A stretch of DNA of 64,000 nucleotides, taken from Escherichia coli. GTDB taxonomy: Bacteria > Pseudomonadota > Gammaproteobacteria > Enterobacterales > Enterobacteriaceae. The stretch is from the NCBI RefSeq assembly GCF_016026235.1, contig NZ_CP065613.1. One strand, given 5' to 3'. A program made the position numbers. Position 1 is the first letter of the stretch. Each line of letters opens with the position of its first letter. Shown piece after piece: positions 6,001-9,000 of this stretch.

Positions 6001-9000
6001 GGTGCCCATCACCCGCTGATTTTCACCACGCAACGGAATTACCAGCGTCGACCCCAGTTTGCATTGCGGATGCAAAGAGCAACGATAAGGTACTTCGTTG
6101 CCATCAGCGTAGACCACTTCACCGGTTTCAATCGCTTTTAAGGTGTAAGTCGAAGATATCGGTTTGCCGGGTAAATGGTGGTCGTCACCAATTCCGGTAA
6201 AGGCCAGCAATTTCTCTCGATCGGTAATCGCGACTGCACCAATATCCAGCTCCTGATACAGCACCTGTGCCACTTTCATGCTGTTCACTTCGTTAAACCC
6301 CTGGCGCAAAATGCCTTCCGTCGAGGCAGCCACTTTCAGCGCAGTGGCAGAAAAAGCCGAAGTGTATTTTTCAAACATCGCGCGTTTATCGAGCAATATA
6401 CGCATAAACAGCGCCGCGCCGACGGTATTGGTGACCATCATTGGCGCAGCAATATTACTCACCAGACGCACCGCATCTTCATAAGGTCGGGCGATCGCCA
6501 GGATGATCAACATTTGCACCATTTCAGCGACGAACGTGACGGCACCGGCGGTAATGGGGTTAAAGACTTTATCAGTGCGCCCGCGACGGATCAGGATGCT
6601 GTGTACCAGGCCGCCGAGCAATCCTTCAACGATGGTCGAGATCATGCAACTTAGCGCGGTCATGCCCCCCATCGAATATCGATGTAACCCGCCGGTCAGG
6701 CCAACCAGCCCACCGACGACCGGACCGCCGAGTAAGCCGCCCATTACCGCGCCTATCGCACGGGTATTGGCAATAGAATCGTCAATGTGCAACCCAAACC
6801 AGGTGCCCATGATGCAGAAGATGGAAAAGACGATGTAGCAGAGAAATTTATGCGGCAGACGAACCGTGACCTGCATTAACGGTATGAATAATGGCGTTTT
6901 ACTCATTAACCATGCAATGACTAAAAAAACGCACATCTGCTGAAGCAGCAGCAACACCAGATTAAAATCGTACATACCCGCAAACCACACTTCCCTTTAA
7001 AACGCGTAACATACATTGCCTGCGTTTAACTTTCTTTGAACTCTTGCAGAAAAATGAGAATTCGTGAGTACGATCACTCAAAATCGCCTGGCAAAAATAA
7101 AATCACCCTATAAATGCACAAAAAACGGGCAAAACTACCTGGTTCGCAAAACTGCGTCTAAAGTTAAACTGGGACCTCGCGAGCAAGGGTGAGACGATGG
7201 CGCTTTACACAATTGGTGAAGTGGCGTTGCTTTGTGATATTAACCCTGTCACGTTACGCGCGTGACGCAACATTTTTAAAAATCGACGAAGATCGTCCAG
7301 GAGCGCCGTTTTTCAAGGGTTGGATAGATGATTCGTTTACCATGTCGACGAACTTCGACGAATTTCGCCGATAAAAAGTGTCCCATACATGCCCCATTGA
7401 TGCCCCATAAACAATATCAGGAATTGACACTGGTTATCCATACAGATAAAAATAACACCTGTACATAACTACAGTTACAGGAGGGTGTTATGCGTGTTGA
7501 GATCTGTATCGCTAAAGAAAAAATCACTAAAATGCCAAACGGTGCTGTGGATGCGTTAAAGGAAGAATTAACCCGACGCATCAGTAAACGTTATGACGAT
7601 GTAGAGGTGATCGTAAAAGCCACCAGCAACGATGGCCTTTCTGTTACACGCACCGCAGATAAGGATTCTGCAAAAACATTTGTTCAGGAGACTCTGAAAG
7701 ATACCTGGGAGTCTGCTGACGAGTGGTTTGTTCACTAATAAACACGTAAAATCGGTAACGGCTGGAAATCATTCAATACTCGCACTATCGAAAGTTTACC
7801 AGCCAACCGCAGCACGTCCTGCATACGTCGTGTCTGCGGTTTTTCTTTTTCGCTTACATTGTGTCTGGTTCTTCCGGCCACTCAATATCAGGTGCAGTTG
7901 ATGTATCAACACGGTTCAGCAACACCCGATACTTCTTCCAGGCTTCCAGCAACGAGTTTTCTTCCTCCGTTGCGATCTCCAGATCTACAGCATCCTGAAG
8001 TGGCGCAATATGCTCACTGAATTCCTGGATGTAGAACTGTGTGGTGACGGTCTTCCAGCCATTCGGCTCCTGCTGTATCGAAGCATACCAGGCTATTTCA
8101 ATATCGCTATGCTGCGGCAGCATTTAACCCCTTGTAATTCATCGCCATAATTGATTTAATTCACAAATAAAACTATAACATGGTGAAATTAATGAAAAAA
8201 AACACAGATGATGGGGCTAAAATTTACACACCACTTACCCTAAAGCTTTATGACTGGTGGGTTTTGGGAGTATCAAATCGGCTTGCATGGGGATGTCCTA
8301 CAAAGGAACACCTTCTTCCACACTTTCTGGAACATTTAGGTAACAACCATCTGGATATTGGTGTTGGAACTGGGTTTTACCTTACTCACGTACCTGAGAG
8401 TAGTCTGATATCTTTAATGGATTTGAACGAAGCTAGCCTGAACGCGGCATCTACAAGGGCTGGGGAATCAAAAATTAAACATAAAATTAGCCATGATGTT
8501 TTTGAACCTTATCCTGCGGCGTTACATGGTCAATTTGATTCCATTTCCATGTTTTACCTTCTTCACTGCCTGCCTGGAAATATATCTACAAAAAGCTGTG
8601 TAATACGCAATGCGGCGCAGGCCTTAACTGATGATGGAACTCTATACGGAGCCACAATTCTTGGCGATGGAGTTGTGCACAATAGCTTCGGTCAAAAACT
8701 GATGCGCATTTACAATCAGAAAGGCATCTTTTCAAACACAAAAGATTCCGAAGAAGGCTTAACACATATACTCTCAGAGCATTTCGAGAATGTTAAAACC
8801 AAGGTTCAAGGTACTGTAGTAATGTTTTCCGCTTCAGGGAAAAAATAGCATCCAACCGCAGCACGTTCTTGCTTAAGACGTGCTACGGTTTCCTTTACGA
8901 TTTGGGGTTGCGACTTTACCTCTATTGATAATGCATTCCGGCAGAACGTTCAAATATGAACGTACGATATTTAACTAACCGAAAAACAAAATATAGCACA

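What the first reader, a model, noticed from the sequence alone, without database searches (positions are those of the whole stretch)
8180..8848. Orphan SAM-dependent methyltransferase in the AT-rich cargo region next to ipaH
A 222-aa class I methyltransferase (motif I HLDIGVGTG) sits alone between a Tfa remnant and ipaH with no restriction or specificity partner. It does not look like a typical Dam/Dcm DNA methyltransferase to me, so the substrate (DNA, RNA, protein or small molecule) is open. An effector-linked methyltransferase would be noteworthy.
Basis: partly seen in the sequence, partly recalled or inferred. Interest (0 to 1): 0.4.

Follow-up and report, generated by a model that had tools for sequence, protein, structure and literature searches.

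The report
Common prophage cargo methyltransferase (YbcY family)
This is an intact copy of the uncharacterised YbcY-family SAM-dependent methyltransferase that lambda-like prophages carry in about 70% of complete E. coli genomes, and its place beside ipaH reflects a neighbouring cargo insertion rather than an effector partnership.

Summary
The ORF at 8180-8848 is real, intact and a class I SAM-dependent methyltransferase. The true start is probably ATG 8192, giving 218 aa.

It is not a rarity linked to ipaH. The same gene, at 95% or higher nucleotide identity, is in 3,831 of 5,426 complete E. coli genomes and in 14 sequenced lambda-like phages. It is the intact form of the K-12 DLP12 pseudogene ybcY, and it is PHROG 2132 ('unknown function').

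Only 8 E. coli genomes have ipaH next to it. Homology with prophages that lack ipaH stops at 8888, at the end of the methyltransferase's own terminator hairpin. ipaH brings its own perfect MxiE box (9029-9045). Another EIEC prophage has ipaH in the same slot without the methyltransferase.

The protein lacks DNA-methyltransferase motifs. Its sequence and fold relatives are small-molecule methyltransferases: JHAMT, BioC, UbiE/UbiG, PmtA and CysG/BelI. An invariant His125 aligns with the catalytic His of JHAMT. One distant relative is fused to a P450 inside a polyketide synthase cluster.

Chromosomal homologues occur across Proteobacteria, always alone. The substrate is still unknown.

Verdict: an ordinary, already annotated prophage cargo gene of unknown substrate. 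Low interest.

The parts
7424..8888 (+). Conserved prophage-end cargo module: DinI-like gene, tfa remnant and methyltransferase.
   Evidence: This stretch (query positions 425-1889) matches E. coli prophages at other integration sites, such as dusA in strain N47, at 95-98% identity. Homology with N47, phage ev243 and DLP12 ends at 8888.
8151..8179 (+). Sigma-70 promoter of the methyltransferase: -35 TTGATT at 8151-8156, a 17-nt spacer, and -10 TATAAC at 8174-8179.
   Evidence: The sequence is identical to the constitutive RpoD promoter reported for ybcY by genomic SELEX, which also lists an H-NS site (PMC3946193). It is read in the window and is invariant in 5 aligned alleles. In vivo use was not tested here.
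8192..8848 (+). Methyltransferase coding sequence, 218 aa (the longest ORF starts at 8180 and gives 222 aa). Motif I DIGVGTG is at residues 55-61 of the 218-aa form. Invariant His125-Cys126 follow strand beta-4.
   Evidence: The AlphaFold2 model has mean pLDDT 91.6 and a seven-stranded class I fold.
8854..8890 (+). Terminator-like hairpin directly after the stop codon. It is also the junction with the ipaH cassette.
   Evidence: The RNA fold is -18.4 kcal/mol, z = -3.5, and 0 of 200 shuffles fold as well. Sequences of different prophages diverge within or right after this hairpin.
7854..8123 (-). Tail-fibre-assembly remnant upstream of the methyltransferase, divergently oriented. It is equivalent to tfaX of DLP12.
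   Evidence: It matches Pfam Caudo_TAP at profile positions 75-130 of 131 only. K-12 has the same layout, tfaD - ybcY - tfaX.
8889..10807 (+). Separate ipaH cassette, not part of the methyltransferase unit. It comprises an AT-rich leader, an MxiE box at 9029-9045 and ipaH at 9164-10807.
   Evidence: The window has a single, perfect match to GTATCGTTTTTTTANAG. The protein has NEL and LRR_TTSS domains. The cassette is absent from most carriers of the methyltransferase.

Best explanation
The gene is the intact form of the YbcY-family methyltransferase. It is a self-contained cargo gene ('moron') at the tail-fibre and attachment-site end of lambda-like prophages.

Shown:
- It has its own sigma-70-type promoter sequence and its own terminator hairpin.
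- It runs opposite to the phage late genes and has a foreign base composition.
- It is spread through E. coli as essentially one allele under purifying selection.
- It is independent of ipaH, which is a later, separate cassette joined at the terminator hairpin.

Inferred:
- The protein is a cytoplasmic, single-domain class I enzyme that transfers the methyl group of SAM to an oxygen or nitrogen atom of a small molecule. A carboxyl or hydroxyl group of a metabolite or lipophilic acid is the most likely target.
- The invariant His125 after strand beta-4 acts as the base or anchor, and a conserved N-terminal helix (Tyr12, Tyr20) and a polar cap (His163, Asn164, Tyr174, Asn175, Lys177, Asn182, Asp185) form the pocket.
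- It acts in the lysogen, not on DNA and not as a secreted effector.
For: Identity and spread:
- It matches phrog_2132 at E = 8e-157 over the full length.
- It is about 99% identical to K-12 ybcY (b0562), which carries a 2-bp lesion at the start codon.
- It is in 3,831 of 5,426 complete E. coli genomes, with up to 4 copies.
- It is in 14 lambda-like phages and in at least 80 IMG/VR prophage contigs at 99-100% identity, usually within about 0.3-4 kb of a contig end.
- The exact protein was seen on 1,000 or more contigs.

Moron anatomy:
- The promoter is covered, the hairpin, and the GC content of 40.8%.
- In phage ev243 the gene lies between the tail fibres and ompT/int.

Selection:
- There are 3 synonymous and 0 non-synonymous differences against ev243, N47 and O157, and 7 synonymous and 2 non-synonymous against CFT073, giving omega of about 0.08.
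- The gene is retained intact in the heavily decayed CFT073 remnant.
- Homologues 44-75% identical and of full length occur across Proteobacteria, with 44 invariant columns.

Independence from ipaH.

Small-molecule chemistry:
- Every sequence hit in the PDB is a small-molecule methyltransferase. JHAMT is the best at E = 1.5e-5, followed by ToxA, MM_2633, NodS, PMT and UbiG.
- The NCBIfam near-misses are CpaM, BioC, RquA, UbiE and NodS.
- Foldseek ranks PmtA and JHAMT highest.
- His125 aligns with the 'LHW' His of JHAMT, which is the catalytic His114/115 (PMC8526772).
- One relative, 37% identical over its full length and keeping most family-invariant residues, is fused to a cytochrome P450. 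It overlaps the end of a PKS AT-ACP-TE gene, next to a second P450 and a PPTase.
- The pI is 6.9 and there is no nucleic-acid-binding extension.
Against: - No gene neighbour is conserved across genera that could point to a pathway.
- The Gln of the JHAMT Gln/His pair has no invariant counterpart in the N-terminal segment.
- The PKS-linked relative is a single metagenomic contig.
- Promoter activity comes from an in vitro SELEX table for K-12, where H-NS binding is also listed, so the gene may be largely silenced.
- The U-tract after the hairpin exists only in this ipaH junction. Other prophages have CATAATCCC there.
Confidence: 0.6

Rival explanations
1. It is a membrane-lipid or quinone methyltransferase, for example a PmtA-like phosphatidylethanolamine N-methyltransferase or a UbiG/UbiE/RquA-like enzyme, that changes the lysogen's envelope.
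For: - The best Foldseek PDB match is the bacterial PmtA 8YS9, which is of similar size (207 aa, E = 6e-12).
- There are weak NCBIfam hits to Legionella PmtA, RquA, UbiE and UbiG and PDB sequence hits to UbiG.
- The N-terminal helix is rich in Trp and Tyr.
Against: - The PmtA model scores 15.7 bits against a cut-off of 390.
- The N-terminal helix has a low hydrophobic moment (0.23 or less), and the protein is neutral (pI 6.9) rather than basic. PmtA binds membranes through basic residues (PMC11446283, abstract).
- No ubiquinone or phospholipid genes are adjacent in any genome examined.
Confidence: 0.1
2. It is an RNA methyltransferase (rRNA or tRNA) that modifies the host translation machinery.
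For: - A few family members give weak hits to RsmC, CmoM and PrmC models.
- A solitary gene with no pathway partners fits a macromolecular substrate.
Against: - No RNA-binding domain or basic surface is indicated. The protein is 218 aa with pI 6.9.
- All significant sequence hits in the PDB are small-molecule enzymes.
- One family member sits in a PKS cluster fused to a P450.
Confidence: 0.12
3. It is a protein methyltransferase. The first reader's version is included here: an effector-linked enzyme delivered to, or acting with, the type III secretion programme alongside IpaH.
For: - It lies next to ipaH in this window.
- The N-terminal 10 residues are disordered (pLDDT below 50), as secretion signals often are.
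- There are weak hits of 3-4 family members to HemK/PrmC-type models.
Against: - The only MxiE box lies downstream of the methyltransferase stop codon.
- The gene is in about 70% of E. coli genomes, most of which are not EIEC or Shigella. It is also in free phages and in the chromosomes of Enterobacter, Pseudomonas, Agrobacterium and others.
- The ipaH adjacency occurs in 8 genomes only, and ipaH occurs without it.
- From prior knowledge, not tested here: the known effector methyltransferases NleE/OspZ do not have the class I fold.
Confidence: 0.07
4. It is an orphan DNA methyltransferase that protects phage DNA from restriction or acts epigenetically.
For: Phages often carry orphan DNA methyltransferases, and the gene has no restriction partner.
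Against: - It has no [DNS]PP[YFWH] motif and no PC[QK] motif.
- It has no target-recognition domain. The 218 aa are fully accounted for by the core fold and a small cap.
- PADLOC gives only a 14-bit chance-level hit.
Confidence: 0.02
5. It is a hitch-hiking, functionally irrelevant or decaying passenger. It is common only because it sits in a conserved end module of successful lambda-like prophages.
For: - The E. coli and phage copies are nearly clonal at 99-100% identity, so prevalence could reflect phage spread.
- K-12 carries a pseudogene.
- H-NS binding at the promoter is reported.
Against: - The differences seen between alleles are almost all synonymous.
- The gene is kept intact in the CFT073 remnant, which has lost nearly all phage genes.
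- The family is conserved at full length across phyla with 44 invariant columns.
Confidence: 0.09

Closest known systems
E. coli K-12 ybcY (b0562), a pseudogene of cryptic prophage DLP12; RefSeq WP_000239881.1 and WP_000742375.1 'class I SAM-dependent methyltransferase'; PHROG 2132
   Same: It is the same gene: about 99% nucleotide identity, the same promoter, the same flanking tfa fragments and the same terminator hairpin. The PHROG match is full length.
   Different: The window copy is intact. K-12 has lost 'G' and 'A' at the ATG and A-run, which destroys the conserved start codon. In the window an ipaH cassette follows the hairpin instead of the tfaD end.
Salmonella STM1638 and other chromosomal homologues in Enterobacter, Yersinia, Pseudomonas, Dyella, Agrobacterium vitis, Legionella and others
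   Same: They are full-length homologues, 44-75% identical, with the same invariant residues, and they are always solitary.
   Different: They are chromosomal, not phage-borne. They are also uncharacterised: STM1638 is mentioned only as the flank of the sRNA rydC (PMC11340327).
Insect juvenile hormone acid O-methyltransferase (JHAMT; PDB 7EBS, 7EC0) and BioC-type carboxyl O-methyltransferases
   Same: JHAMT is the best sequence relative among solved structures (E = 1.5e-5, 21% identity). The segment FDS-S-FY-LH after beta-4 aligns, including the catalytic His. BioC is hit weakly by 21 of 26 family members.
   Different: Trp116 of JHAMT is an invariant Cys here. There is no invariant Gln partner. 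The protein is shorter (218 against about 270 aa). Scores are far below any family cut-off.
Bacterial phosphatidylethanolamine N-methyltransferase PmtA (PDB 8YS9)
   Same: It is the best Foldseek match and of similar size, with a class I core and an N-terminal helix bearing Tyr and Trp.
CysG, BelI and MM_2633 (PDB 9FCE, 9G0K, 3DTN), metal-dependent carboxyl O-methyltransferases
   Different: The His-His-Asp metal motif is not reproduced, because the second His is a Cys. Equivalence of the Asp was not established here.

Membership tests
Class I (Rossmann-like) SAM-dependent methyltransferases | Glycine-rich motif I (D/E-x-G-x-G-x-G) at the end of strand beta-1. | tested here: met
   HLDIGVGTG is present. 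It is invariant in 26 homologues from several phyla. Pfam Methyltransf_12, _23, _25 and _11 all score above their cut-offs.
Class I (Rossmann-like) SAM-dependent methyltransferases | [quoted passage not shown] | tested here: met
YbcY / PHROG 2132 prophage methyltransferase | Full-length, high-scoring match to the family profile, and orthology with b0562. | tested here: met
   It matches phrog_2132 at E = 8e-157 over profile positions 1-218 of 218. It is about 99% identical in nucleotide sequence to ybcY, with conserved flanks.
Moron (autonomous cargo unit in a lambdoid prophage) | Its own promoter and terminator, atypical base composition, and presence or absence between otherwise related phages. 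| tested here: met
   The promoter sequence equals the SELEX-mapped ybcY promoter. The hairpin folds at -18.4 kcal/mol. GC is 40.8% against 50-56%. The gene is present in ev243 and 2G7b, while in phage Ayreon only a 36-bp match remains. Transcription in vivo was not tested.
N6-adenine / N4-cytosine DNA methyltransferases (Dam-like) | Catalytic motif IV (D/N/S)PP(Y/F/W), plus a target-recognition domain. | tested here: not met
   The motif is absent. No extra domain is present in the 218 aa. No DNA methyltransferase is among the matches shown.
C5-cytosine DNA methyltransferases (Dcm-like) | Pro-Cys catalytic dipeptide (PCQ) in motif IV, with ENV in motif VI in the canonical order. | tested here: not met
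   There is no PC[QK]. The single 'ENV' at residue 199 lies in the C-terminal strands, outside any motif context.
Restriction-modification system | An adjacent restriction endonuclease and/or specificity subunit. | tested here: not met
   The neighbours are a DinI-like gene, a tfa remnant, ipaH and tfa/DUF4376. PADLOC gives no significant hit.
Shigella/EIEC MxiE-regulated type III effectors | An MxiE box upstream of the gene. | tested here: not met
   The only match in the 64 kb (perfect, 9029-9045) lies after the methyltransferase stop codon and 119 bp upstream of ipaH.
Shigella/EIEC MxiE-regulated type III effectors | Distribution restricted to strains that carry the secretion system. | tested here: not met
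   The gene is in 3,831 of 5,426 complete E. coli genomes, including K-12, CFT073 and O157, in free phages, and in many other genera.
Shigella/EIEC MxiE-regulated type III effectors | An N-terminal secretion signal, with actual secretion. | not testable with these tools
   All that can be said is that residues 1-10 are predicted disordered.
JHAMT-like carboxyl O-methyltransferases | [quoted passage not shown] | tested here: inconclusive
   The His aligns with the invariant His125. No invariant Gln exists in residues 1-40 of the family, and that segment is outside the HMMER alignment.
PmtA phospholipid N-methyltransferases | A match to the curated family model, and membrane association through basic or amphipathic elements. 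| tested here: not met
   NF045882 scores 15.7 bits against a cut-off of 390. The pI is 6.9 and the helix hydrophobic moment is 0.23 or less.

The most novel reading that the evidence does not exclude
The methyltransferase is a genuine lysogenic-conversion enzyme. It would methylate a common bacterial metabolite or lipophilic acid, or possibly an envelope lipid, and so change host physiology, colonisation or phage susceptibility. That would explain why one allele is kept intact in about 70% of E. coli genomes, even in prophage remnants that have lost almost everything else. It would define the function of a widespread, uncharacterised proteobacterial enzyme family.
Probability: 0.15. Interest if true: 0.55.

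Novelty: already known. Interest (0 to 1): 0.15.

Why it matters
As found, it matters little. The gene is already annotated in thousands of genomes, and the suggested link to a type III effector does not hold.

Three points have modest value:
- The correct reading of this locus is two independent cargo units joined at a terminator hairpin that recurs as a junction for other cargo.
- The likely true start codon explains the K-12 pseudogene lesion.
- A conserved methyltransferase family carried by most E. coli still has no known substrate, which a simple biochemical screen could address.

Tried and rejected
- **Defence or anti-defence role.** PADLOC gave only a 14-bit hit to mad2. Rejected as uninformative.
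- **Guilt by association.** I examined contexts in Salmonella, Enterobacter, Yersinia, Aeromonas and Erwinia. I also clustered all neighbours in 80 GTDB loci. The only multi-genus cluster was generic short-chain dehydrogenases at inconsistent positions. The recurring alpha/beta hydrolases or esterases near some copies (ev243, O157, Enterobacter, Erwinia) were not consistent enough to use.
- **Literature.** Searches for ybcY, WP_000239881, phrog_2132 and STM1638 found no functional study.
- **Viral structure library (BFVD).** Only generic methyltransferases at 16% identity or less.
- **AlphaFold database fold search.** The library was not available.
- **Curated NCBIfam models.** None is reached by the window protein, whose best score is 17.5 bits against cut-offs of 175 or more. 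The 26 diverse members give only weak hits, E = 1e-8 at best.
- **Fusion partners of remote family members.** Only the P450 fusion was informative. An RCC1 fusion covers a partial methyltransferase domain and may be a gene-model artefact. The others have N-terminal extensions without domains.
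Full report
**Observation.** The window has an ORF at 8180-8848 (+) of 222 aa. About 0.09 ORFs of that length are expected by chance in 64 kb at this composition. The protein passes the Pfam gathering scores of four generic class I methyltransferase models and contains motif I, HLDIGVGTG. The gene is AT-rich, at 40.8% GC with GC3 34.7%, against 50-56% for btsR/btsS and the phage tail genes. There is a DinI-like gene at 7490-7738. A tail-fibre-assembly fragment at 7854-8123 (-) matches only the C-terminal part of Caudo_TAP. IpaH at 9164-10807 has LRR_TTSS and NEL domains. A tfa/DUF4376 gene and tail-fibre genes lie on the minus strand. The whole lies at one end of a complete lambda-like prophage of about 45 kb inserted between btsS and mlrA.

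**Start codon.** Several lines point to ATG 8192 (218 aa) rather than ATG 8180. The PHROG profile covers residues 5-222. All but one of the 29 aligned homologues from other genera start at the equivalent of 8192. CFT073 has ACG at 8180 and is annotated as 218 aa. The promoter reported for ybcY by genomic SELEX, TTGATT-17-TATAAC, lies at 8151-8179, so its -10 hexamer abuts 8180 and transcription would begin after it (PMC3946193; sequence). That last step is an inference from spacing and was not measured.

**What the gene is.** It matches phrog_2132 ('unknown function') at E = 8e-157 over the whole profile. The same gene, at 99.4-99.7% nucleotide identity, is in 14 sequenced lambda-like E. coli phages, including ev243, 2G7b, PhiR26_1, Turner and Kati. 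In ev243 it lies between the tail-fibre genes and ompT/int, on the strand opposite the tail genes. It occurs at 95% or higher identity in 3,831 of 5,426 complete E. coli genomes, with up to four copies. The exact protein was seen on at least 1,000 contigs. At least 80 IMG/VR prophage contigs carry it at 99-100% identity, usually within about 0.3-4 kb of a contig end.

In K-12 it is the DLP12 pseudogene ybcY (b0562), in the arrangement tfaD - ybcY - tfaX - appY - ompT. The K-12 copy is about 99% identical but has lost two bases at the ATG 8192 / A-run, which destroys the conserved start codon. No paper in the searched library reports a function.

**Relation to ipaH.** Only 8 of 5,426 genomes have the arrangement with ipaH. 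Aligning the window with prophages that lack ipaH (N47, ev243, DLP12) shows that homology ends at 8888. That is the 3' end of a hairpin that follows the methyltransferase stop codon. The hairpin spans 8854-8890, folds at -18.4 kcal/mol with z = -3.5, and none of 200 shuffles folds as well. The only MxiE-box match in the window, a perfect one at 9029-9045, lies after that point and 119 bp before the ipaH start.

In O157:H7 a different cargo (a stress-protein, ferritin-like and Mn-catalase cluster) is joined at the same hairpin. In EIEC strain RMDEC332 an ipaH cassette follows the related hairpin after dinI, with no methyltransferase present. The methyltransferase and ipaH are therefore independent cargo units. 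The hairpins look like recurrent module junctions. The 'effector-linked' reading is not supported.

**Is it functional?** Against ev243, N47 and O157 the window allele differs by 3 synonymous and 0 non-synonymous changes. Against CFT073 it differs by 7 synonymous and 2 non-synonymous changes, giving omega of about 0.08, though the counts are small. CFT073 keeps the gene intact in a remnant that otherwise retains only ompT and fragments of tfa and int.

Outside E. coli the family is chromosomal and widespread. A scan of one genome per species gave 165 confirmed relatives, and the 80 best were returned. They come from Enterobacterales, Pasteurellaceae, Pseudomonas, Dyella/Rhodanobacter, Agrobacterium vitis, Acidobacteriaceae, Vibrio and Legionella, at 44-75% identity over the full length. 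An exhaustive search found 194 clusters (50% identity) with E of 1e-30 or lower and 797 with E of 1e-10 or lower. Twenty-six diverse members share 44 invariant columns. These include Tyr12, Tyr20, Asn29, Trp33, Cys35, His53, motif I, Asp77, Asp102, His125-Cys126, Asn164, Tyr174-Asn175, Lys177, Asn182 and Asp185. All this indicates an active enzyme.

**What it does.** An AlphaFold2 model built from 30 homologues is confident (mean pLDDT 91.6). It shows a seven-stranded class I core, two N-terminal helices and a small cap between strands 5 and 6.

The segment after strand beta-4, FDSISMFYLLHC, aligns with FDHVFSFYTLHW of JHAMT. There the His is the catalytic His114/115 that anchors and deprotonates the carboxyl group (PMC8526772). 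The same structural position carries functional His residues in PmtA and in CysG/BelI according to their papers. That equivalence is my inference from motif spacing, not a superposition.

One remote family member is 37% identical over its full length and keeps most invariant residues. It is fused to a cytochrome P450 and overlaps the end of a PKS AT-ACP-TE gene, next to a second P450 and a phosphopantetheinyl transferase. This is direct contextual evidence for a small-molecule substrate in that branch, though it rests on a single contig.

The protein is neutral (pI 6.9) and has no signal peptide-like or amphipathic N-terminus.

My best reading is a cytoplasmic small-molecule O- or N-methyltransferase that uses His125, expressed in the lysogen from its own promoter. 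I put confidence in the whole statement at about 0.6. The identity of the gene and its independence from ipaH are much more certain than the chemistry.

**What did not help.** No gene neighbour is conserved across genera. The Salmonella homologue is STM1638, known only as the flank of the sRNA rydC. The idea of a PmtA-like membrane helix was not borne out. PADLOC and BFVD gave nothing specific. The AlphaFold database fold library was unavailable.

**Verdict.** The feature, however, is an ordinary, already annotated prophage cargo gene (YbcY family, PHROG 2132) whose adjacency to ipaH is incidental. Novelty: already known, as a gene of unknown substrate. Interest: 0.15. The most novel reading still open is that it is a true lysogenic-conversion enzyme acting on a common metabolite or lipid. 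I give that a probability of about 0.15 and an interest of about 0.55 if shown.

Noticed in passing
window 7803-7844 and 8853-8890; L018 about 5670-5715; L099 about 3375-3420: Terminator-like hairpins that share the same 5' arm (CCAACCGCAGCACGT) follow both the dinI-like gene and the methyltransferase. Different prophages diverge inside or immediately after these hairpins, where different cargo is attached: ipaH here and in RMDEC332, and a stress/ferritin/Mn-catalase cluster in O157:H7. They look like recurrent recombination junctions for cargo modules.
   Followed up: partly
window 9029-9045: A perfect MxiE box (GTATCGTTTTTTTACAG) lies 119 bp upstream of the ipaH start. It is the only match in the 64 kb, although 35 of 100 shuffles give at least one match at 3 or fewer mismatches.
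   Followed up: yes
window 9164-10807: The ipaH ORF is intact here: 547 aa, with LRR_TTSS and NEL domains. RefSeq marks the near-identical copy in EIEC strain CFSAN029787 as frameshifted, and that strain's 4-kb stretch is 1 base shorter than the window.
   Followed up: partly
window 8192-8203; L002 (K-12 ybcY): The K-12 ybcY pseudogene lesion is the loss of two bases at the start ATG followed by an A8 run. A homopolymer at the very start of the gene could be a slippage-prone site.
   Followed up: partly
L017 (CFT073, argU region): A heavily decayed DLP12-like remnant keeps only ompT, the intact methyltransferase, and fragments of tfa and int next to tRNA-Arg.
   Followed up: partly
window 35564-35874: The prophage carries a cluster of four tRNA genes on the minus strand: Gly-TCC, Thr-TGT, Arg-TCT, and a CAT-anticodon tRNA. 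The equivalent of the last in CFSAN029787 is annotated tRNA-Ile. The cluster lies between the Q antiterminator and the lysis genes.
   Followed up: no
window about 7000-52600: A complete lambda-like prophage of about 45 kb is integrated between btsS (yehU) and mlrA (yehV), with its integrase at 51253-52539. The near-identical prophage of CFSAN029787 also encodes a RelE/ParD-like toxin-antitoxin pair and two Rha-family regulators.
   Followed up: partly
L180 (metagenomic contig SRR33619829_17215): A distant family member is fused to a cytochrome P450. It overlaps the end of a PKS AT-ACP-TE gene and is followed by a second P450 and a phosphopantetheinyl transferase. This is an uncharacterised biosynthetic cluster.
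   Followed up: partly
L003 (Salmonella, 8001-8663): The chromosomal Salmonella homologue corresponds to STM1638. It lies next to cybB and, according to the literature, the sRNA rydC, which activates the cyclopropane fatty acid synthase gene cfa. This is probably a coincidence.
   Followed up: no
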